This document shows positions 1,668 to 18,722 of a stretch of 20,000 nucleotides of DNA, piece after piece. The notes under the pieces are model-generated. The model did not search any database. It was not told where the DNA came from and worked only from the letters and a program-made list of their open reading frames with translations. A program made the position numbers and the translations under genes. Source of the DNA: Chiloscyllium plagiosum (lineage: Eukaryota); NCBI RefSeq assembly GCF_004010195.1, contig NC_057719.1, forward strand, positions 808,039 through 828,038, written 5' to 3'. Numbering within the stretch: the first letter of the stretch is position 1; each line of letters starts with the position of its first letter.

Positions 1668-2290
1668 CACGCACTGACCCATTCATACAACCCATCAGTA
1701 ACCCTCTCACATTGCCTCCTTTCTTACTTTCCCTTCTGTGGATCATCGGGATGTGTGGGAATGTGTCACTCAGTCTCCTCATTCATTCATTAACGTCAGA
1801 ATGTAAATAGCTGAGCCTTCAGTGCTGACCGTTGCTGCATTCCACTGGTCACAGCCTGCCAATTTGAAAATGAGTCGTTCCCTCCTCCTCAGTTTTCTGT
1901 CGACTGGCCAATCCTACATTCCTGATACATTATCACCCTCAATCCCACAAACCCTAACTTGTAATTATTCCCACTTGGCCAGCGTCCCCCTGTGCATCTC
2001 ACTGCCTATTTCTGAATCCTTTCATCCCTTCAGACCTCACTGACGCTGACCCCTTATGTATCTCCACCTTTGATATCAACTACTTGGGCAATATGATGTT
2101 GATCAGAAAAGATTTACAAGGACGTTGCCAGGGTTGGAGGGTTTGAGCTACAGGGAGAGGCTGAATGGGTTGGGGTTGTTTTCCCTGGAGTGTCAGAGGC
2201 TGAGGTGAGACCTTGTAGAGGTTTATAAAGTCATGAGGGGCATGGATAGGGTAAATAGTAAAAGTCTAGAACTAGAGGGCATAGGTTTAA

Positions 2291-2491
2291 ATCAACTAGG
2301 CAAAAGTGAGGACTGCAGATGCTGGGGATCAGAGTCTAGATTAGAGTGGTGCTGGAAAAGCACAGCAGGTCAGGCAGCATCTGAGGGGCAGGAAAGGATT
2401 TCTGATGAAGGGCTTTTGCCCGAAACGTTGATTTTCCTGCTCCTTAATGCTGCCTGATCTGTCGTGCTTTTCCAGCACCACTCTGATCTAA
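2291..2491. mobile_element. Penelope-like element terminal fragment in inverted (palindromic) arrangement
   Basis: Arms 2337-2395 and 2433-2490 are reverse complements. Flanked by a 12-bp TSD with 1 mismatch, gcataggtttaa (2279-2290) / gcataagtttaa (2492-2503). Same family as 6649, 11779 and 12418. Confidence 0.8.
2396..2436 (+). ncRNA. Minimal type I hammerhead ribozyme motif (PLE-associated), canonical core
   Basis: CTGATGA (2402-2408), a, stem II gggc-tttt-gccc, GAAA (2422-2425), CGTT with putative GUU cleavage triplet. Confidence 0.78.
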
Positions 2492-2884
2492 GCATAAGTT
2501 TAAGGTGAGAGGGGAAAGATTTAAAAAGGGAACATAGGGGCAACGTTTTCACGCAGAGGGTGGTACGTGTATGGAATGAGCTGCCAGAGGAAGTGGTGGA
2601 GGCTGGTGCAATTGCAACATTTAAGAGGCATTTAGATGGGTATATGAATAGGAAGGGTTTGGAGGGATATGGGCTGGGTGCTGGCAGGTGGGACTAGATT
2701 GGGTTAGTCTCAGAATAACATGGTCAGGCTGCTGAGTTGGACTGAAGGGGCTGTTTTTGTGTGAGGCTAGTCTGGGTTAGGCTGTTTGACCACCCTTACA
2801 CCAGTGTTCAGTATGATTATGTCTGATCTCGTGGTGGCCCCCGTCCATTTGTACGTCAACCCTGCTGCCTTCAGAAACTTCATT

Positions 2885-3240
2885 GACAAGGAGTGGAATA
2901 GATAGAGTCAATAGCCAGAGACTTTTCCCCAGGGCAGGATTGACTGGTACAAGAAGTCATAGTTGGAAGTTTATTAGGAGGAAGGTATAAAGGAGACGTC
3001 AGAGGTAGGTTCTTTACACAGAGAGTTGTGAATGCATGGAATGCGTTACCAGCGGTGGTGGTGGAAGTGAAGTCATTGGGGTCATTTAAGTGACTGCTAG
3101 ACATGCACATGGACAGCAGTGAGTTGAGGGGTGTGTGGGTTAAGTTACTATATTTTACATTAGGATTAAAGCTTGGCACAACATCGTGGGCCGAAGGGCC
3201 TGTTCTGTGCTGGACATTTCTATGTTCTTCTATGTTCTAA
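2885..3240 (+). mobile_element. CR1 LINE 3' end with tandem tail
   Basis: Encodes DVRGRFFTQRVVNAWNALPAVVVE; 3' UTR gggccgaagggcctgttctgtgctg; (ttctatg)n tail at 3218-3239. Confidence 0.9.
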
Positions 3241-3699
3241 GGAATTCAATCACACCCAGACTGTAAGATATTCAGTGACTCTACCTCCACTGACAGATTG
3301 GCTTCTCCTTGTCTCTGTAACAGTTGACCCACAACTTGTTCAAAAAATACAAGGGAGAGTGTCTGAGCAGCGAGTGACAGAAGGAGGAGGAGCAGAGATT
3401 TAGTAGGAGAATTTCAGAGCTTAAGGGAGATTTAATTCAGTAATCGCCCCCACCTCCCCGTGAAATGCCTTGGGATGATCTCCTCTCTTGGAGGTGTGAT
3501 GTAAATATGAGTTGTTGTTGTAACTGGTGCCGCCTGGAACTCTGACAGGGGTGGGGATTTGGTGGAGACTCTCAAGTGAGAACCATGGACCTGATCACCG
3601 GCTGTTAGCTGCTGGTCACAGCGCAACTGGACAGTTCCTAGCAGAACGTCATCGCTCCTCACCATCTCGACCTCCCAGATCCAAGGGCCATTAGCTTCC

Positions 3700-3945
3700 A
3701 CGCTGCCCCCTCACTTGCCCCCAGCTCCTAGGCCCACCAGCCACCTTGCTTGCTGACCTCCCTAATCCCCTCACCCCTGTCCCTGTGCCATCTGGACTCT
3801 TTATCCCTTACCCCACATTCACTGCCCTCCCAGCTCCACCCCCATCCCCATCTCCTTAGACCATCTTATCTCCCACCCCTTTGTTCCTGCCGCCCACTCC
3901 TCCCTCCTAACCTACATTGCCTTCATCTTACTCTCATCCGTGGGC
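3700..3945. repeat. C/pyrimidine-rich low-complexity region
   Basis: Dense C runs on the + strand, no clear period. Confidence 0.5.
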
Positions 3946-3946
3946 C

Positions 3947-6642
3947 TATCCAAGAGTCACTTAAATGTCCGTGATGTCTCTGACTCTACTCCCACCGTTG
4001 GCAATGCATTACACACACCCACCACTCTCTGAGTAAAGAACCGACCTCTGACATCTCCCATAAACCTTCCACCAATCACCTTAAAATTATACTCCCTTGT
4101 GACAGCCATTTCTGCCCTGGGAAAAAGTCTCTGGCTATCCACTCTATCTCTGCCTCCCAACATCTTGTACACCTCGATCAAGTCACCTCTCATCCTCCTC
4201 CACTCCAATGAGAAAAGCCCTAGCTCTCTCAACCTTTCTTCATAAGACACACCCTCCAGTCCAGGCAGCTTCCTTGGAAAGCTCCTCCGCACCCTGTCCA
4301 AAGCTTCCACATCCTTCCTATAATGAGGTGAACAGAACTGAACACAATATTCCAAGTGTGGTCTAACCAGGGCTCTATAGAGCTGCAGCATAACCTCGCG
4401 GCTCTTAAACTCAATTCCCCTGTTAATGAAAGCCAACACACCGTACACCTTCTTAACAACCCTATCAGCCTGGGTGCCAACTTTGAGGGATCTATGCAAG
4501 ATCTCTCTATTCCTCCACACCGCCAAGAATCCTGCCTTTAACCCTGGGTAATCTGCATTCAAATTTGACCTTCCAAAGTGAATGGCATCACACTTTTCCA
4601 GGTTGAATTCCATCTGCCACTTATCAGCCCAGCTCTGCATCCTGTCAATGTCCCATTACAACCTACAACAGCCCTCCCACACTATCCACCACTCCGCCAA
4701 CCTTCGTGTCATCGGCAGACTTACTAACCCACCCTTCCACTTCTTCATCCCAGTCATTTATAAAAATCACAAAGAGCAGAAGTCCCAGAACAGATCCGTG
4801 CAGAACACCGAGCTCCAGGCTGAATACTTTCCTCGCTTTTCAAAGTTTTCAGCACATCCTCCTTCCTAACATCAACCTGTTTGAGCATATCAGCCTGTTT
4901 CACGCTGTCCTCAAACAACAAGGCCCCTCTCAGAAGTGAATACTGAAGCAAAGTATTCATTAAGGATCTCCCCTACCTTCTCCAACTCCAGGCACAAGTT
5001 CCCTCCACTACCCCTGATAGGCCCAACCCTCACTCTGGCCAACCTCTTGTTCCTCATAAGTGTTGAATGCCTTAGGGTTTTCCTTGATCCTACCTGCTAA
5101 AGCTTTTTCATGCCCCCTTCTCACTCTCCTAAGTCCATTCTTCAGTTCCTTCCTGGCTACCTTGTAACCCACTAGAACCCTGTCTGATCTTTGCCTCCTC
5201 AACCTAAGTAAGCTTCCTTCTTCCTCTTGACTAGATGTTTCAGATCCCTTGTCCCCCAAAGTTCCATCACCCTACCATCCCTTCCTTGCCTCAGTGGGAC
5301 AAACCTGCCCAGCACTATCAGCAAGTGCTCCCTAAACAACCTCCACATTTCTCTCATGCATTTCCCTGAGAAAATCTGCTCCCAATCTAGGCTCCCCAGG
5401 TCCTGCCTGATAGCATTGTAATTCCCCCTCTCCCAATTAAATGCTTTCCCATACCGTCTGCTCCTATCACGCTCCATGACTACAATAAAGGTCACTATCA
5501 TCAAAATGCTCTTTCCTGAGAGATCTGACACCTGACCTGGCTCGTTGCCAAGCACCAAATCCAATATGGCCTCCCTCCAGTCAGCCTATCTACATATTGC
5601 GTCAGAAACACTTTCTGGACACACTTGACACAAACTGCTACATCCAAACTATTTGAATTAAGGAGGTTCTGATCAATATTAGGGAAATTGAAGTCACCCA
5701 TGACAACAACCCTGTTACTTCTGCACCTTTCCAAAATCTGCTCCTCCCTGTCTCTGTTTCTATTGGGGGACATGTAGAAAGCTTCCAATAAAGTGACTGC
5801 TCCTTTCCTGTTTTCTGACTTCCACCCATACTGACTCTGTAGACAAATCCTCCTCGATGACCTCCCTTTCTGCAGCTCTGATACTATCCTTGATTAGCAA
5901 TGCCACTGCCCCATTTCTTTTCCTTGCCCCCGCCCAATCCCATTCCTTTTGAAACATCTGAACCCTGGAACATCCAACAGCCATTCCTGTCCCTGTGATA
6001 TACAAGTCTCTGTAATGGCCACAGCATCGTGGTTCCAAGGACTGGTCCATGCTCTGAGTTCGTCACCCTTATTCCTGATACTCCTTGCGTTAAAATAGAC
6101 ACACTTCAACCTATCACTCTGACTGCACATTTGCCCTATCAAGTACCTATCCCTCGTCACAGACTCTCTGCACACTGTCTCAGTCTGTTCACTACCTACT
6201 CCATCCTCTGATCCATAGCTCCAGTCCCCACCCCCTGCCAAACTCGCTTAAACCCTCCCAAAGAGCTCTTGTAAACCTCCCGCCCAGGACATTGGTGCCT
6301 CTCCAGTTCAGGTACAACCCGTCCTTCTTGTACAGGTCCCACTTACCCAGAAGGTATCCCAATGATCCACATATCTGAAGCCCTCCCTCCTACACCAGCT
6401 TTACAGTCACATGTTCATCTGCACTCACTCTCCATTCCTAGCCTCATGAGCACGTGGCACCAGTAGCAATCCGGAGATTACTACCTTGCTCATCCTGCCT
6501 ACTAGCTTCCAACCCAACTCCCTATATTCTCTTTTCAGGTCTTCATCCCTTTTCCTAGCTGTGCCATTGGTACCAACGTCTGGCTGCTCTCCCTCCCCCT
6601 TAAGAATCCTGTAGGCTCGATCAGAGACATCCCTGATCCTGG
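3947..6642 (-). mobile_element. Long decayed CR1-clade LINE (ORF1 esterase, ORF2 APE and RT), internally deleted, 3' UTR missing
   Basis: ORF1: GEGEQPDVGTNG...VVISGLL..., [60 protein letters not shown]...FIND...[41 protein letters not shown]. Multiple frameshifts. Confidence 0.95.
6250..6640 (-). pseudogene. CR1 ORF1 remnant, SGNH esterase-like domain
   Basis: GTN block (VGTNG) and a DGxHLN-like block (DGLYLN) upstream of the APE domain; frameshifted. Confidence 0.75.
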
Positions 6643-6648
6643 TAATCA

Positions 6649-6983
6649 GGAGAAAGTGAGGACTGCAGATGCGGGAGATCAGAGCTGAAAAATGTGTTGC
6701 TGGAAAAGCGCAGCATGTCAGACAGCATCCAAGGAGGAGAATCGACGTTTCATGCATAAGCCCTTCTTCAGGAATGAGGAAGGTGTGCCAAGCAGGCTAA
6801 GATAAAAGGTAGGGAGGAGGGACTTGGGGGAGGGGCAGTGGGAATGCGATAGGTGGAAGGAGGTTAAGGGGAGAGTGATAGGCCAGAGAGGGGGTAGGGC
6901 GGAGAGGTTGGGATGAACATTGCAGATCAAGAAGGCGGTGCTGAGTCTGAGGGACTGAGATAAGGGTGGAGGGGGGGGGGGGG
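6649..6983 (-). mobile_element. Penelope-like element 3' / pseudo-LTR fragment
   Basis: Shares gtgaggactgcagatg...gctggaaaagc with 2306-2361, has a G-rich body and a hammerhead core. TSD-like tccctgatcct (6630-6640) / tccctgacccct (~6985-6996). Confidence 0.8.
6737..6776 (-). ncRNA. Minimal hammerhead ribozyme motif, stem II damaged
   Basis: Minus strand cattc-CTGAAGA-agggc-ttat-gcat-GAAA-CGTC-gattc. Core and GUC site present; stem II 3' arm reads gcat instead of gccc. Confidence 0.65.
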
Positions 6984-6992
6984 GTCCCTGAC

Positions 6993-7050
6993 CCCTGACC
7001 CCTACACTCTGCCCCTCACTTCCTGACCCCCTACACTCTGCCCCTCACTC
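6993..7050. repeat. Two-copy ~29 bp tandem duplication
   Basis: cctgacccc(c)tacactctgcccctcact occurs twice, right after the PLE junction. Confidence 0.8.
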
Positions 7051-7109
7051 CCCTGCTTATTGCCCCTGTCCAAGCTGAGACCTGATTCCTCAGTGCCCTC
7101 CCCAGGATC

Positions 7110-7462
7110 TGATTTGCCCCTTTCTCTTTAATGGGTATTCACCATCTGCCCTTCCTTCCCACGTGCCATGTTGTTGACACTCTGCCAAGACCAGTGTGAA
7201 CCTTTGAAGGTCACTCCACCATCATTCGGTGAGCTCAATAAATCAGGCAATTAGCTAATGGACAGTAACTTGGAGAGAGACTGATGTGTGATCTGGCCGG
7301 GATTAGGAATCCACTCTGAATGAAGCTAACGTTGACCTGCAGCACAAGGTTGAGTCTGGAGAGATGGTTTTGGTAGCGACAGATTCGGTTTTTAACTTTG
7401 TGCAGACGATGTTCCCGAGTGTAGGGAGGGGCTTGAGAAAACACATCGTTCACTGAGCCTTC
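7110..7462 (-). other. Candidate terminal exon of a minus-strand gene
   Basis: Strong acceptor ccttctttctcctcgtcctttag|GAAGG at 7462. Unique sequence. ATTAAA at 7127-7132 (minus). Phase 0 reads EGSVNDVFSQAPPYTREHRLHKVKNRICRYQNHLSRLNL...; phase 2 reads QKAQ*. Confidence 0.4.
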
Positions 7463-7487
7463 CTAAAGGACGAGGAGAAAGAAGGTG

Positions 7488-7628
7488 CATTTTGATGGCA
7501 CCTTTCACCACCTTGGGACGATCCATAATGCCTCGCAACCAATGAGGTACTTTAAGGGGTTTTCATTGTTGCAATGCAGGAAACTTTGCTGATAGTTTGT
7601 GCACAGGAAGCTCCCATGACCAGCAAGA
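7488..7628 (-). mobile_element. Old SINE 3' relic (Deu-SINE-like with L2-type tail)
   Basis: Recognisable degenerate motifs gcacctttcacc...ccaatgaggtacttt...ttgcaatgcaggaaac...tttgtgcacaggaagctccca. Family assignment from recall only. Confidence 0.5.
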
Positions 7629-7639
7629 CTACAATAACA

Positions 7640-7928
7640 ATAAGAGATAAACCATTCAGGCCTGAGATCAGGAAGAATTTCCTCACTGAGAGTTGTGAGC
7701 CTGTGGAACTCTCTCCCACAGGAAGCTGTTGGGGCCAGTTCGTTAGATATATCCAAGAGGGAGCTGGACATGGCCCTTGGGGCTAAAGGGATCCAGGGGG
7801 ATGGGGAGAAAGTGGGAATGGGATACTGAGATTGCATGATCAGCCAGGATCATATTGAATAGTGATGCAGGCCAGAAGGGCCGAATGGCCTACTCCTGCT
7901 CCTGTTTACTATGTCTCTATGTTTCTAA
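7640..7928 (+). mobile_element. CR1 LINE 3' end
   Basis: IRDKPFRPEIRKNFLT / RVVSLWNSLPQEAV; 3' UTR gatcagccaggatcatattgaat...gggccgaatggcctactcctgct; tail ctatgtctctatgtttcta. Confidence 0.9.
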
Positions 7929-7999
7929 GAGATAGAGAACAAGGGAATGTGATGGTTGAAGGAGAAATATTGACCAATGACAATGGAAGGCAGTTAAAA

Positions 8000-8132
8000 A
8001 AATTAAGGGATACAGGGATATGTGGGTAAGTGGAGTTGAAATGCCCATCAGCCATGATTGAAAGGCAGAGTGGACTCGATGGGCCAAATGGCCTTACTTC
8101 CGCTCCTATTTCTTATGGTCCTCTTTGGTCTT
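8000..8132 (+). mobile_element. CR1 3' UTR fragment
   Basis: atcagccatgattgaa...gatgggccaaatggccttacttccgctcctatttcttatggtc. Confidence 0.8.
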
Positions 8133-8134
8133 AA

Positions 8135-8655
8135 CATCAGTACAGGATGCGGCCTTTCAGCCCGTCGAGCCTGTTCCACCATTCAATGAGATCATGGCTG
8201 ATCTGTGGCCTAACTCCACGCACCTGCCTTTGGCCCATATCCCTTAATACCTTTGCTGAACAAAATGTCACCTGTCTTGGATTTAAAATGAACAATTATT
8301 CCAGCATCCACTGCCATTATGGAAGAGAGTTCCAAACCTCTCCCAATCCCTTTGTGTGTGGAAATGCTTCCTGTCATCTCTCCCGAACAGTCTGACCCCC
8401 TTTGGTCCTAGAATTTCCAACCAGTAGAAATACTTTCTCTTTATCTACCCTGTCTTTCTCTGTTAATATCCTAATTGATGTTAACAGATATCAGATCACT
8501 CCTTAACCTTCGAAGTCCTTGAGACAAAAGCAACCTCATTTGTACAATCTCTCCTCAGAACCCCTGGAAACTGACATTGTTCTCCTTCCAATTCACCGCT
8601 CCTTCCAAAAGTGTGGTGCCCAGATCTGCTCACAGTCTCCAAGCGATGCTCTAAA
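8135..8655 (-). mobile_element. CR1 LINE 3' fragment, tail-to-tail with the previous fragment
   Basis: Reverse complement of the CR1 3' UTR (cattcaatgagatcatggctgatctg) and decayed ORF2 C-terminus (gagagttccaaacctct; tccaaaagtgtggtgcccaga). Confidence 0.82.
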
Positions 8656-8804
8656 TGGGAATATAGGGGATCTAGAATTCTGCTCAGAATCAACTTTTAA
8701 CCTGTCACTTGCACTATTCGGTCAGAAGAGATGATGCATTCAATGGGTCTGGGGATTTAAGCAGCATCAATGAATAATGCAGCATGTCCTTATGGGGAAG
8801 TGGG

Positions 8805-9010
8805 GGGGTGCTCAGCAAGCTCAGTTGGGTGGACGGCTGGTAGGCGATGCAGAGTGGCACCCACATTGTGGGTTCGATTCCTGCACCAGGTGAGGATCCT
8901 GTGGCAGTCCCACTGCCTTAACTGCTCCCCTCACCCGACTCTCGGGTTAAACGCACCATCAACCATGTGTCTCGCTCTAACGAGATGCCCCTCTATGGTG
9001 TCTTTACCTG
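8805..9010 (+). mobile_element. Old tRNA-derived SINE
   Basis: A-box-like agctcagttgg (8817-8827) and B box ggttcgattcc (8871-8881), followed by a ~130 nt body. Confidence 0.6.
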
Positions 9011-9019
9011 AAGCTAACT

Positions 9020-9340
9020 TGGTAAAACATCCCCAAAATTGTCAGAAAAAAAATTGTCCGACTCTGCAGGAGGTGGGACATTTGGGAATGTGATCGAAAA
9101 CATGGAAGAAAGATTAAGGACAATTCCGAGACTGTGGGGGAGGGAATCCAGAGATTTAGCATCTGACACATTGATAGGCAGAGCTTCCAATGATGGAGAG
9201 ATTAATGTCAGGGCGCCTTGAGGCCAAACTGGATTGGTGCAGGGATGGCAGTGAGTGGTGGGACTGGAGGAGGTTATGGAGATAGTGAGAGGTGAGGCCG
9301 TGGAGAGATGATAACAAATTTTCAAACTGAGGTGTTGCCA
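9020..9340 (-). mobile_element. Old L2-like LINE 3' fragment
   Basis: Decayed minus-strand peptide FENLLSSLHGLTSHYLHNLLQ resembles the L2 ORF2 C-terminal FKIL...LHGLAPxYL motif. Confidence 0.6.
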
Positions 9341-9629
9341 TAGAATTACTACAGTGTGGAAACAGGCCATTCGACCCAACAAGCTTACATCGACCCACCG
9401 AAGAGTAACCCAGACCCATTCCCCTTCCCTATTACTCTACATTTACCCCTGACTAATGCACCTAGCCTACTCATCCCTGAACACTGGGCAATTTAGCATG
9501 GCCCAATCCACCTAAACCTGCATATCTTTGGACTGTGGGAGGAAACCAGGGCACCCGGAGGAAACCCATGCACACACGGAGATAATGTGCTAATTCCACA
9601 CTAACAGTTGCCTGAGGCTGGAATCGAAC
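9341..9629 (-). mobile_element. HE1-like SINE, head truncated by the gap
   Basis: Same tail and core as 710-1003 and 12751-13082; breaks off in the B box (ggaatcgaac) at the N run. Confidence 0.9.
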
Positions 9630-10129
9630 NNNNNNNNNNNNNNNNNNNNNNNNNNNNNNNNNNNNNNNNNNNNNNNNNNNNNNNNNNNNNNNNNNNNNNN
9701 NNNNNNNNNNNNNNNNNNNNNNNNNNNNNNNNNNNNNNNNNNNNNNNNNNNNNNNNNNNNNNNNNNNNNNNNNNNNNNNNNNNNNNNNNNNNNNNNNNNN
9801 NNNNNNNNNNNNNNNNNNNNNNNNNNNNNNNNNNNNNNNNNNNNNNNNNNNNNNNNNNNNNNNNNNNNNNNNNNNNNNNNNNNNNNNNNNNNNNNNNNNN
9901 NNNNNNNNNNNNNNNNNNNNNNNNNNNNNNNNNNNNNNNNNNNNNNNNNNNNNNNNNNNNNNNNNNNNNNNNNNNNNNNNNNNNNNNNNNNNNNNNNNNN
10001 NNNNNNNNNNNNNNNNNNNNNNNNNNNNNNNNNNNNNNNNNNNNNNNNNNNNNNNNNNNNNNNNNNNNNNNNNNNNNNNNNNNNNNNNNNNNNNNNNNNN
10101 NNNNNNNNNNNNNNNNNNNNNNNNNNNNN
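9630..10129. other. Assembly gap of exactly 500 N
   Basis: Round-number N run, likely an arbitrary scaffolding gap; true distance and orientation uncertain. Confidence 0.98.
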
Positions 10130-10191
10130 CTCTTTATTCAAATTTCCACCACCAGGAAGAAAGGAAACACCCAAAGTGGCCAGTGACAAGC
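10130..10191 (-). mobile_element. Probable retroelement 3' UTR fragment with AATAAA
   Basis: Minus strand cttgtcactggccactttgggtgtttcc...ggtggtggaaatttgaataaaga resembles a shark LINE 3' end (recall only). Confidence 0.4.
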
Positions 10192-10339
10192 GATCAAAGG
10201 GCAATTCAAATCGCTTCTCAAATCACTTTGTCATCAATAACTGGTCACTAGTCCATAGACCAAGCAACTTCTTGTTAACTCCCAGCTGTATCTGTACACA
10301 GCCCCTCGGATCCAGTTCGTCTGCAGCCAATTCACTTAC

Positions 10340-10452
10340 TGCTTCCTCAAGCAGCTGTTTCCACAATGCTTGCTGTCAGTCTCAGGTGACTTGCTTTTCA
10401 AAATCTTTAAAAGGCTGTTTTAAAACAGTTCTTCCACAATTCATTCCATGGT
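10340..10452 (-). other. Candidate internal exon of the minus-strand gene (alternative acceptor at 10414)
   Basis: Acceptor tcttttttacttctgcgcttttcaag| and consensus donor GCA|gtaagtg. Second possible acceptor tgttttaaaacag| gives LLKILKSKSPETDSKHCGNSCLRKQ. Confidence 0.45.
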
Positions 10453-10747
10453 CTTGAAAAGCGCAGAAGTAAAAAAGACACATCCTTCCATCTCTGCAAA
10501 TTCTGCTGGGATTTTCTAACACCATTTTGTTTTTATTCCTGAGTTCCAGAATCCACAGTCTCTTTCTGTTTATATGGTAAGCTGCCTCATAGAACATGTG
10601 CTGTGGGTTGACCCACAATGCCCTTAGGGAGGGAATTCCAGGATTCTGACCCAGTGACACTGAAGGAACGGTGATGTATTTCCAAGTCAGGATGGTGAGG
10701 GGCTCGGAGGGGACCCTGCAGGGGGTGGGGGCGTTCCCATGTATCTT

Positions 10748-11082
10748 TTAAATTCATTTGGGGGAAGTGGGTGTCACTGGCTAAGCAGCGTTTATTGCCC
10801 ATCCCTAATTGCCCTGAGGGCAGTTAAGAATCAACCACATTGGCTGTGGGTCTGGACCGGACCAGAGCAGACCAGACCAGGTAAGGATGGCTGTTTCTTT
10901 CCCTAAAGTGACCCAGGTGGGTTTCCAACAATCGACAATGGTTTTATGGTCATCAGTAGACTCTAAATTCCAGGGTCTTTTTAAAAAAATGAATTCAAAT
11001 TCCACCATCTGTTGTGGTCAGAGTCAAACCTGGATCCCCACAACATTCCTGAATCTCCGGATGAACAGTGCAGTGATAACCC
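10748..11082 (-). mobile_element. tRNA-derived SINE with tail from the second LINE family
   Basis: Minus strand B-box-like ggtttgactct near 11020-11031. Tail gggcaattagggatgggcaataaacgctg matches the LINE 3' end at 19604-19658. Confidence 0.7.
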
Positions 11083-11096
11083 CTATATCCTCGGTG

Positions 11097-11627
11097 AAAC
11101 ATAAACAATAATTGCTGGAAAATGGCTGGTAGCACCTGTGGAGAAAAATCAGATTTAACGCTTCGGGTCCGGGGATCTTTCCTCAGAACTGATGGTAGCT
11201 GGGAAAAGGTGGAGAGGATGAGGTGGGAGGGGTGGGTGGGGGGGAAGGTGGAAGAGAAAGGGGAGAGGAGTAAATGATAGGTGGGGATAGAGTCCCAGGA
11301 GAGACAATAGATGGACAAAGGAATGGGTAACGATCTGGCTGGGAGGGTGAGTAGCTGTTAATGGGGGACTGTTGATGGCTAACAATGGGTTGTGTGTCAT
11401 AGTAGACGCTGGTAACAAAGCCTGGTGTGTGGGGGTTGGGGTAAGGACATGGGAGAGCTCAATCCCTAAAATTATTGAACTCGACATTGAGTGCAGAGGG
11501 CTGCAGGGTCCCCAAGTGGAAAATGAGGTGCTGTTCTTCCAGCTTACACTGAGCTTCACTGGAGCCCTGCATCAAACCTGAGACAGAGTTGTCCAGGAAA
11601 CAAGGTGGTAACAGGCAATGGGAAGCT
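11097..11627 (-). mobile_element. Penelope-like element (second subfamily), 3' end with GIY-YIG C-terminal remnant
   Basis: Minus strand reads SEAQCKLEEQHLIFHLGTLQPSALNVEFNNFRD* (~11459-11560), typical of the vertebrate PLE endonuclease C-terminus. Followed by a pyrimidine-rich UTR and a hammerhead-like core. Confidence 0.85.
11150..11192 (-). ncRNA. Degenerate hammerhead ribozyme motif
   Basis: Minus strand cagtt-CTGAGGA-aagatccccggaccc-GAAG-CGTTA-aatctg. GAAA changed to GAAG and stem II eroded. Confidence 0.5.
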
Positions 11628-11778
11628 CATGTGACTGTCAATCCTCCTTTCCAGGTGGGAGTGGGTTTGGAGGGTGCTGTCTCATGTCTAACAAAATTCT
11701 GCAGGGCATCTTGTAGATGGTACACACTGCTGCTACTGAGCGTTGGTGGTGGAGGGAGTGGATACTTGTGCATGTGGT

Positions 11779-11875
11779 CTATATTAGAGTGGTGCTGGAA
11801 AAGCACAGCAGGTCAGGCAGCATCCGAGGAGCAGGAAAATTGACGTTTTGGGCAAAAGCCCTTCATCAGGAAAAC
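11779..11875 (-). mobile_element. Short Penelope-like terminal fragment
   Basis: Same family as 2337-2490. 14-bp TSD with 1 mismatch, cttgtgcatgtggt (11765-11778) / cttgtggatgtggt (11876-11889). Confidence 0.82.
11836..11873 (-). ncRNA. Hammerhead motif with G12>A change
   Basis: Minus strand ttc-CTGATGA-agggc-tttt-gccc-AAAA-CGTC-aatt. GAAA changed to AAAA at a CpG. Confidence 0.62.
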
Positions 11876-11920
11876 CTTGTGGATGTGGTGCCAATCAAGT
11901 AGCTACTTTGTCCTGGATAG

Positions 11921-12239
11921 TCATAGAGTCATAGAGATGTACAGCACGGAAACAGACCCATCGGTCCAACCCGTCCATGCTGACCAGATATCCCAACCCA
12001 ATCTAGTCCCACTTGCCAGCACCCGGCCCATATCCCTCCAAACCCTTCCTATTGATATACCCATCCAAATGCCTCTTAAATGTGGCAATTGTACCAGCCT
12101 CCACCACTTCCTCTGGCAGCTCATTCCATACACGTACCACCCTCTGTGTGAAAAGGTGTAAATCTTTTCTGAACCCTTTCAAGTTTCCCAACATCTTTCC
12201 GATGGGAAGGAGACCAGAATTGTACACAGTATTCCAACA
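11921..12239 (-). mobile_element. CR1/HER1 3' fragment with internal deletion, nested in the host LINE
   Basis: FTQRVVRVWNELPEEVVEAG joined directly at ~12156 to upstream ORF2 sequence. (ctctatga)n tail. TSD-like gatagt (11916-11921) / gatggt (12240-12245). Confidence 0.9.
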
Positions 12240-12417
12240 GATGGTGTTGAGCCTCTTGAGTGTTGTTGGACCTGCACCCATCACATTCCTAACTTGTACC
12301 TTGTTAGGAAGTGAGTTAATGCCGTATTCCTAGCCTCTGACCTGTCATTGTGTTTATGTGGTGAGTCCAACTGAGTTTGTGGTTATTAGTAACCCCTAGG
12401 ATGTTAATAGTGGGGGA

Positions 12418-12452
12418 CTGAATGAAGGGCTTATGCCCGAAACGTCGATTCT
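12418..12452 (+). ncRNA. Hammerhead motif, 5' core altered at the insertion junction
   Basis: CTGAATGA (one extra base), a, gggc-ttat-gccc, GAAA, CGTC, gattc. Confidence 0.6.
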
Positions 12453-12538
12453 CCTGCTCCTTGGACGCTGCCTGACCTGCTGCGCTTTTCCAGCACCACA
12501 CTCTCGCCTCTGATCCTCAGTCCTTGCTTTCTCCTGAG
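12418..12538 (+). mobile_element. Short Penelope-like terminal fragment beginning inside the hammerhead core
   Basis: ctgaatgaagggcttatgcccgaaacgtcgattctcctgctcc...ctcagtccttgctttctc; ctga at both junctions. Confidence 0.8.
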
Positions 12539-18516: not shown

Positions 18517-18585
18517 AGGTGCACTCGGCCTGGGTTGTGTGGAAACGGCGATGCAGCTTCACTGGACACAGGAAGAGTCAAAGCG

Positions 18586-18722
18586 ACAGCCAATGACAGG
18601 AGAGAGAACATTGAAAAGCAGCAAATGGCATGAGCCTGAGGGAGGAGGGGGCGTGGTTATGATTGGATCACGTGGTGTGGGGCAGGGCCTGGTAAAGTTC
18701 GGGAACTTTGTGAAGTATAAAC
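18586..18722. promoter_or_regulatory. Promoter-like motif cluster
   Basis: agCCAATga (CCAAT 18590-18594), GC box ggggcgtgg (18648-18656), ATTGG (18662-18666), E-box CACGTG (18669-18674), palindrome aaagttc-gg-gaacttt (18694-18709), TATAAA (18716-18721). Confidence 0.55.

What the first reader, a model, noticed from the sequence alone, without database searches (positions are those of the whole stretch)
2396..12452. Five hammerhead-ribozyme motifs from two Penelope-like subfamilies within 10 kb
Seen: cores at 2402 (+), ~6744-6771 (-), ~11155-11186 (-), ~11842-11869 (-) and 12418 (+). Position 7 varies (CTGATGA, CTGAAGA, CTGAGGA) and the stem II loop varies (tttt/ttat), while the other core bases are largely kept, as expected for a hammerhead. 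One copy lies downstream of a GIY-YIG C-terminal peptide, which ties the motif to PLEs. Inference: if this density is typical, the genome holds a very large number of hammerhead relics, and some would be transcribed inside introns.
Basis: partly seen in the sequence, partly recalled or inferred. Interest (0 to 1): 0.7.

Follow-up and report, generated by a model that had tools for sequence, protein, structure and literature searches.

The report
Penelope hammerhead stubs, cut-site U6 fusions
The five motifs are real but mostly broken end-pieces of a known kind of jumping gene (Penelope-like) whose tiny self-cutting-RNA motif fills this shark genome over 160,000 times, and seven U6 RNA copies elsewhere in the genome join such pieces exactly at the predicted cut, which likely means the motif does cut in living cells.

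Summary
All five motifs are at the stated places and far beyond chance. They are minimal type I hammerheads in terminal-repeat fragments of Neptune-type Penelope-like elements (PLEs), a link in print since 2014. They come from three families, not two, and only the copy at 2402 keeps a full core and stem II.

The genome, a shark's by protein matches, holds 167,350 intact cores against 1,038 in the control; similar fragments occur about every 5 kb, so this cluster is only mildly dense. Between families the core is invariant and the stems covary; inserted copies decay like their flanks.

Most copies are about 100-nt stubs whose 5' ends cluster just before the core, at an initiator-like site with a TATA-like box upstream: likely run-off cDNAs of uncut RNA.

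Following a lead from earlier notes of this scan, I found seven loci where U6 joins a PLE tail exactly at the predicted cut (background 4 of 199): indirect evidence of cleavage in vivo. The scan found both features before on other DNA of this genome. Whether the window is intronic was not determined.

The parts
2398..2490 (+). Copy A, right arm: PLE terminal-repeat stub (TTTT-loop family) starting 4 nt before the hammerhead core (2402-2429); the only intact core in the window; GUU triplet, predicted cut after 2429
   Evidence: 91% to family A majority
2291..2395 (-). Copy A, left arm: inverted core-less tail starting 3 nt after the predicted cut; with the right arm it folds back into a long hairpin (-113 kcal/mol for 2336-2490)
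2279..2290 (+). Target-site duplication of insertion A, left copy (right copy 2492-2503; 12 nt, 1 mismatch)
6648..6960 (-). Copy B: 3' UTR + hammerhead (6744-6771, stem II broken) + long tail, TTAT-loop family; ends approximate; possible 10-nt duplication at 6630 and 6985
   Evidence: 94% to family B majority over 6667-6836
11096..11609 (-). Copy C: older family; endonuclease C-terminus, 3' UTR, damaged hammerhead (11157-11186) and tail; other copies are 74-83% identical
11459..11590 (-). GIY-YIG endonuclease C-terminal peptide (43 aa + stop) within copy C
   Evidence: no Pfam match on its own
11779..11875 (-). Copy D: solo stub starting 3 nt before the core (11842-11869, G12>A), flanked by a 14-nt duplication (11765-11778 and 11876-11889, 1 mismatch); independent of copy E
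12418..12536 (+). Copy E: solo stub starting at the first core base; 1-nt insertion in the core; TTAT loop; long tail; no clear duplication
   Evidence: 92% to family B majority

Best explanation
The five motifs are decayed minimal type I hammerheads inside end fragments of three Neptune-type Penelope-like retrotransposon families, and most such fragments are likely short cDNAs copied from the uncut front of the element's RNA, while in the active element the motif likely cut a fraction of the RNA. SHOWN: the motif sits in the repeat downstream of an RT + GIY-YIG reading frame; the core is invariant and the stems covary between families; inserted copies decay like their flanks; 5' ends cluster near the core; U6 is joined at the predicted cut at seven loci. 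INFERRED: (1) transcription starts at an initiator-like A four bases before the core, so stem I begins at the first base of the RNA; (2) the PLE protein nicks target DNA and starts reverse transcription inside the RNA at one of two tail sites about 90 or 125 nt downstream, as shown in vitro for an anole PLE; (3) when this happens in the 5' repeat, the enzyme runs off the RNA after about 100 nt and leaves a hammerhead-bearing stub; priming on both strands gives head-to-head fold-backs such as copy A; (4) the ribozyme has no loop 3 and would need a second copy or the PLE protein; when it cuts it leaves a 5'-OH end that an RtcB-type ligase would join to U6, and the chimera is retrotransposed. The window copies themselves are likely inactive relics.
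For: Core downstream of RT/EN fragments on the same strand in most RT-bearing loci. Zn-finger-like linker matched in 16 of 32 RT loci and in family C loci; GIY-CxxC-YIG in 8 of 32. 167,350 cores against 1,038 control. Seven stem pairs: 89% of cells paired, 5 pairs with changes on both sides, 0 of 500 shuffles reach the covariation score, slid controls 22-48% paired. Tail-anchored majority sequences of families A/B and C, chosen without the core, still carry the full core. By base class, core and flank decay do not differ (p 0.1-1.0), and G12 is A in 13 of 86 copies like other CpG sites. Of 148 random A/B tails only 22 extend more than 40 nt upstream of the core; the modal start is -4 (14 copies; 23 at -5 to -3). 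80 of 199 have an inverted partner within 100 nt. TATAAA lies 29 nt before the A in family C, and TTTATC/TTATCT at 31-32 nt in B and A. G precedes ATTC in 6,804 of 11,746 non-C junctions. U6 + five T + tail from cut+0: 4 of 46 U6 regions and 7 of 8 pattern hits, seven loci in all, each with a different tail variant, against 4 of 199 random tails starting there.
Against: No cleavage or start site was measured. RNA reads show no pile-up of ends at the cut (a fragmented library and so a weak test). The 5' ends form a cluster from about +20 to -11, not one base, and some fold-back arms reach -7 to -11. The G excess is partly templated by inverted arms and target duplications: by eye on the 100 rows, junctions with unrelated flank gave about 17 G, 13 A, 8 T; a script gave 8 G among 21 solo copies, and none of the 4 with a found duplication showed a clean extra G. 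In that locus set, enriched for long copies, 71 of 142 had upstream homology. Stem I of families A and B is weak (one U-U mismatch) and the active dimer is 8-15 kcal/mol above the predicted minimum. One U6 copy joins PLE coding sequence away from the cut (L325, read by eye), one Poseidon-type junction is ambiguous (L338), and one unverified U6-like 13-mer joins at the start site. No tree was built, so Neptune rests on motifs.
Confidence: 0.8

Rival explanations
1. The stubs are ordinary 5'-truncated copies primed at the 3' repeat, and reverse transcriptase stalls at the hammerhead fold or at a self-nick site next to it; no transcription start is involved.
For: Stem I begins at the same base as the modal 5' end; ends are spread through the core; the anole PLE endonuclease prefers ATT in its own repeat (PMC11167929, main text).
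Against: Once past -40 nearly all copies go on (22 at -40, 19 at -60). TATA-like and initiator-like motifs keep their spacing across families with different spacers. In 30 Poseidon-type copies, whose initiator-like A lies 15-20 nt upstream of the core, none starts at -3/-4 and about three start near -14 to -25 (read by eye).
Confidence: 0.25
2. The stubs are an independent non-autonomous family (a SINE- or retrozyme-like element) that copies itself from short transcripts.
For: Very high copy number, short defined length, target-site duplications.
Against: Solo stubs lack the upstream promoter-like region; their sequence is that of the PLE repeat of each family; ends and fold-back junctions differ at every locus; no tandem arrays of the retrozyme kind were seen in the loci read.
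Confidence: 0.1
3. The motif is kept as a protein-binding or promoter structure and never cuts; U6 junctions arise by template switching at a structural pause.
For: Low in vitro activity of minimal hammerheads (PMC4209133); cleavage not needed for insertion and no RNA ends at the cut in anole data (PMC11167929); most copies here were made from uncut RNA.
Against: All seven loci join at the same bond with exactly five T where both were read, in different tail variants; one fold-back insertion has the same junction in both arms; GUC variants offer no microhomology to U6.
Confidence: 0.15
4. Copies in this region were kept by the host as intronic ribozymes with a regulatory role.
For: Local density two to three times the average; pooled non-CpG core positions looked better kept than flanks (2.3% against 5.6%).
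Against: Four of five copies are damaged; the pooled difference disappears by base class and the sample was biased towards intact cores; no host gene was established.
Confidence: 0.03

Closest known systems
[quoted passage not shown]
   Same: Type I core, one unpaired base before stem II, G10.1-C11.1 pair, palindromic 15.2-16.2 with no loop 3, short stem I, families with covariation, mostly single motifs from truncated PLEs, some in opposite strands close together; reported in Xena, Poseidon and Neptune of fishes.
   Different: Count here is 167,350 against about 4,000 (coelacanth) and 9,000 (Xenopus), but by a sequence pattern, not their structural descriptor. No shark is named in the parts read; supplements were not seen.
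Anolis Poseidon PLE (Frangieh et al. 2024, PMC11167929; main text read)
   Same: Two tail ends about 35 nt apart that match two internal RT start sites; both strands nicked and extended; uncut RNA is the main template.
   Different: Window families are Neptune-type; that study found no RNA ends at the cut and did not describe stubs ending at a start site or U6 fusions.
U6/LINE-1 chimeric pseudogenes made by RtcB ligation (Moldovan et al. 2019, PMC6789731; passages)
   Same: U6 ending in its five-U tract joined to a retroelement RNA with a 5'-OH, then retrotransposed.
   Different: L1 partners are variably truncated; here the partner starts at one bond, the predicted ribozyme cut.
Non-LTR retrozymes (bioRxiv 10.64898/2026.07.22.740005; part 1 of 5 and passages)
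   Same: Short non-coding type I hammerhead elements related to PLE pLTRs; present in one chondrichthyan.
   Different: Retrozymes are defined there as tandem repeats with a hammerhead in each unit; these copies are solo or head-to-head.

Membership tests
min-HHR (type I) | Core CUGANGA ... GAAA ... UH | tested here: met
   Family majorities and copy 2402; not met by the four damaged window copies
min-HHR (type I) | Stem II closed by G10.1-C11.1, with an unpaired base after A9 | tested here: met
   (G-C in 10 of 13 distinct rows, G-U in 3)
min-HHR (type I) | Short stem I with compensatory changes | tested here: met
   3 of 4 pairs change on both sides; families A and B carry a U-U mismatch
min-HHR (type I) | Palindromic 15.2-16.2 without loop 3 (dimer-dependent) | tested here: met
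   ACGU in all eight subfamily majorities (six of them were collected with a pattern that required it)
min-HHR (type I) | Self-cleavage | not testable with these tools
   Indirect only: U6 junctions at the predicted bond
EN+ Penelope-like element | RT followed by a C-terminal GIY-YIG endonuclease with two cysteines inside the motif | tested here: met
   Genomic relatives; Pfam RVT_1 and GIY-YIG on database homologs; in the window only the EN C-terminus survives
EN+ Penelope-like element | Terminal repeat with hammerhead, optional 30-40 nt tail, inverted truncated copy at the 5' end | tested here: met
   features as described in PMC8557442 (passages)
Neptune clade | CX2-5CxxC linker between RT and EN | tested here: met
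   absent before the EN motif in the three T-type loci read. Nematis shares the linker
Neptune clade | Placement in an RT tree with named references | not tested
   No named reference set was held
Non-LTR retrozyme | Tandem units, each with a hammerhead | tested here: not met
   Window copies are solo or head-to-head; no genome-wide search for arrays was run

The most novel reading that the evidence does not exclude
This shark genome is a fossil record of the PLE life cycle: hundreds of thousands of 'strong-stop' cDNAs mark the capped start of the element's RNA at the first base of the ribozyme, and U6 fusions at the scissile bond show that animal minimal hammerheads cut in the germ line and feed RtcB ligation.
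Probability: 0.55. Interest if true: 0.7.

Novelty: new member of a known kind. Interest (0 to 1): 0.5.

Why it matters
The motif and its link to PLEs are known, and the five window copies are relics. What is useful is the scale and the two footprints. Whether animal PLE hammerheads cut in vivo is described as open in the papers read (no in vivo evidence in PMC4209133; no RNA ends at the cut in PMC11167929; function unclear in PMC8557442). The U6 junctions give indirect evidence and a precise bond to test, and the clustered 5' ends give a precise start site to test. My searches found no paper on shark PLE hammerheads or U6-PLE fusions; subscription papers and supplements were not covered.

Tried and rejected
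Rfam: no hammerhead match. Pfam on the window peptide and on a decayed genomic fragment: none. No intact full-length PLE frame among 32 RT-bearing loci; the longest 'open frames' were assembly gaps. Sequencing-run search: no RNA holder listed; run X20 laid no reads, which is no test. A>G and T>C differences in RNA reads coincide with subfamily variants in DNA and were not taken as editing. Copies D and E as two arms of one insertion: rejected (D has its own duplication; different subfamilies). Selection on inserted cores: rejected after stratifying by base. A first ungapped boundary estimate under-called long copies and was replaced by a gapped one that over-calls them. Cap-derived extra G: suggestive only. 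Lunse et al. 2016 on dimeric PLE hammerheads could not be read; I saw it only as a reference in PMC6765202.

Full report
OBSERVATION. The five motifs are at the stated coordinates. A strict pattern gives 2 matches and a 3-mismatch pattern 4, with none in 200 shuffles. Rfam has no hammerhead match among its 5 weak hits. Using standard hammerhead numbering (recalled): 2402 is intact with a GUU triplet; 6771 has a broken stem II; 11186 has A15.1>G and a broken stem II; 11869 has G12>A; 12418 has an extra base in the core and lacks the 5' strand of stem I. Copy A is a fold-back: a core-less inverted tail precedes it, the pair is flanked by a 12-nt duplication, and 2336-2490 folds at -113 kcal/mol. 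Copy D has its own 14-nt duplication, so D and E are separate insertions.

WHAT THEY BELONG TO. Copy C lies downstream of a 43-aa peptide that matches the C-terminus of an RT + GIY-YIG protein. A related genomic fragment finds 9 homologs among 515 candidates, the best named from Chiloscyllium punctatum and Stegostoma tigrinum, so the host is likely a shark; Pfam gives RVT_1 and GIY-YIG on these. In 32 loci fetched for their RT, the motif lies downstream of RT/EN fragments on the same strand in most, and no intact frame was found. A CX2-5CxxC linker pattern matched in 16 of those 32 and 7 of 29 family C loci (some of the latter are chance matches), and was absent before the EN motif in the three T-type loci read. 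By the criteria in PMC8557442 (passages) the window families are Neptune-type and the T-type is Poseidon-type; no tree was built. The window holds three families: TTTT loop (20,210 exact copies of one 27-mer), TTAT loop (33,157 of one 28-mer) and an older one (346 intact; copies 74-83% identical to copy C).

ABUNDANCE. A core-only pattern has 167,350 matches in 3.56 Gb against 1,038 for the reversed pattern; 18,746 fit the Poseidon-type pattern. In 110 arbitrarily placed 10-kb stretches of the large contigs (1.062 Mb without N) there are 199 tail-anchored Neptune-type pieces, one per 5.3 kb, or about 0.67 million if extrapolated. Of these 30 keep an intact core and 23 also keep minimal stems. 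The window's 6 pieces in 10 kb compare with 1.9 expected; 2 of 110 stretches had 5 or more. The span was chosen after the fact and arms come in pairs, so the cluster is unremarkable. Cervera and De la Pena report about 4,000 and 9,000 such motifs in coelacanth and Xenopus with a structural descriptor, not a like-for-like count.

IS IT A HAMMERHEAD? Between family majorities the 11 core positions are identical while flanks share 20-40% in most pairs (87% downstream for A/B, 67% for T1/T4). This is partly circular, because most families were collected with the core; but the A/B and C majorities rebuilt from tail-anchored copies still carry it. On 15 real copies from eight subfamilies (13 distinct), seven stem pairs are 89% paired, five change on both sides, and neither 500 shuffles nor slid partners reach the covariation score; the count of pairs with two-sided change is not above shuffles (171 of 500). 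There is no loop 3, so an ACGU:ACGU dimer is needed; that fold is 8-15 kcal/mol above the predicted minimum, in line with the low activity reported. After insertion the copies decay neutrally as far as I can tell: a pooled difference (2.3% against 5.6%) vanishes by base class, and G12 is A in 13 of 86 copies, like other CpG positions.

WHY SO MANY STUBS. With a gapped method that over-calls upstream extension (its null reads true -4 starts as -4 to -33, once -57), only 22 of 148 A/B copies go more than 40 nt upstream of the core; 86 reach the first core base, 30 reach -20, and the mode is -4. RNA reads of family B show the same edge as loose ends with unrelated flanks at -4 and -3 (96 and 43 of 1,616 laid reads). 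The A at -4 lies in an initiator-like context in all three families, with TATAAA 29 nt upstream in C and a TTTATC/TTATCT box 31-32 nt upstream in B and A (consensus and spacing recalled). PLE promoters lie in the terminal repeat (PMC2377424, passages; TATA + Inr noted in rotifer PLEs, PMC3846280, passages). Copies end at two 3' points about 35 nt apart, like the two internal RT start sites of the anole PLE, which extends both strands and uses mostly uncut RNA. I infer that priming in the 5' repeat gives a 90-130 nt cDNA that runs off the RNA start, and that two-strand priming gives fold-backs (80 of 199); PMC3846280 instead proposes self-priming on an antisense template for such palindromes. 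G precedes ATTC in 6,804 of 11,746 non-C junctions, as a copied cap would give (recalled for L1), but inverted arms and duplications supply part of it and the duplication-aware check was inconclusive. I put the start-site reading at about 0.6. I reached it before opening the earlier notes, which agree; they are not independent evidence.

DOES IT CUT? Earlier notes of this scan gave the lead that U6 is fused at the cut. I tested it. Rfam U6 gave 48 scored matches, fetched as 46 regions. Four have a terminal-repeat tail joined to U6, all starting at the first base after the predicted cut; one joins PLE coding sequence, one is an ambiguous Poseidon-type junction, and the rest join other repeats or none. 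A pattern allowing 5-35 nt between U6 and a tail anchor gave 8 matches, 7 of them at cut+0 after five T and one unrelated; allowing 36-66 nt gave 4 matches, none a verified U6, one a decayed U6-like 13-mer at the start site. Together: seven loci, eight arms, seven tail variants; two of the loci are those of the earlier notes. Background is 4 of 199 (binomial p about 1e-12, which treats loci as independent and cannot see junctions beyond the anchor). At one locus both arms of a fold-back carry the same junction inside a 13-nt duplication, which fits a chimeric RNA made before reverse transcription. Mature U6 ends in five U with a cyclic phosphate and RtcB joins it to 5'-OH RNA (PMC6789731, passages); hammerhead cleavage leaves a 5'-OH (established chemistry). 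I put in vivo cleavage at about 0.75. PolyA single-cell reads show no pile-up of ends at the cut, a weak test.

WHAT IS KNOWN. The motif, its place in PLE repeats, its dimer dependence and its dispersal as truncated relics are in print. A 2026 preprint ties animal retrozymes to PLE repeats and includes one chondrichthyan (its supplements are closed). Searches for shark PLE hammerheads, PLE start-site stubs and U6-PLE fusions found nothing on point.

VERDICT. Observation confirmed with corrections; new member of a known kind; the window copies are likely inactive relics. Interest 0.5, carried by the genome-wide footprints rather than by these five copies, and already noted elsewhere in this scan.

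Noticed in passing
L336 (G000:C31:9507190-9507790): Fold-back insertion whose two arms both carry U6 joined to a PLE tail at the predicted cut; one arm ends at the short tail end, the other at the long one; 13-nt target duplication.
   Followed up: yes
L314, L315, L319, L324, L327-L334, L337, L340, L346, L348: Many U6 copies are joined directly to the 5' end of an abundant tRNA-like SINE (HE1-like, name recalled), suggesting frequent U6-SINE chimeras; L310 is U6 joined to a tRNA-like sequence.
   Followed up: no
L183-L212: A second, Poseidon-type PLE group with longer stem II hammerheads (18,746 matches); one subfamily has G-U in place of the G10.1-C11.1 pair; its copies are mostly longer at the 5' side.
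   Followed up: partly
window:17630-18520: Tandem array of 11/21/22/32-nt GC-rich units, followed at about 18560-18680 by CCAAT-, GC-box- and E-box-like motifs that look like a promoter.
   Followed up: no
window:17440-17545: Non-repetitive stretch ending in a splice-donor-like site on the + strand; possible exon.
   Followed up: no
window:16173-16500: Four to five copies of a 69-70-nt minisatellite.
   Followed up: no
L128, L251, L288, L293: A further old family with tail like family C but a different 5' part (core begins CTTTGACA instead of CTGANGA); possibly a subfamily that lost the ribozyme core.
   Followed up: no
window:11127-11150 (family C majority): A pyrimidine tract + CAG followed by ATG lies just after the predicted cut in family C, like a 3' splice site.
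   Followed up: no
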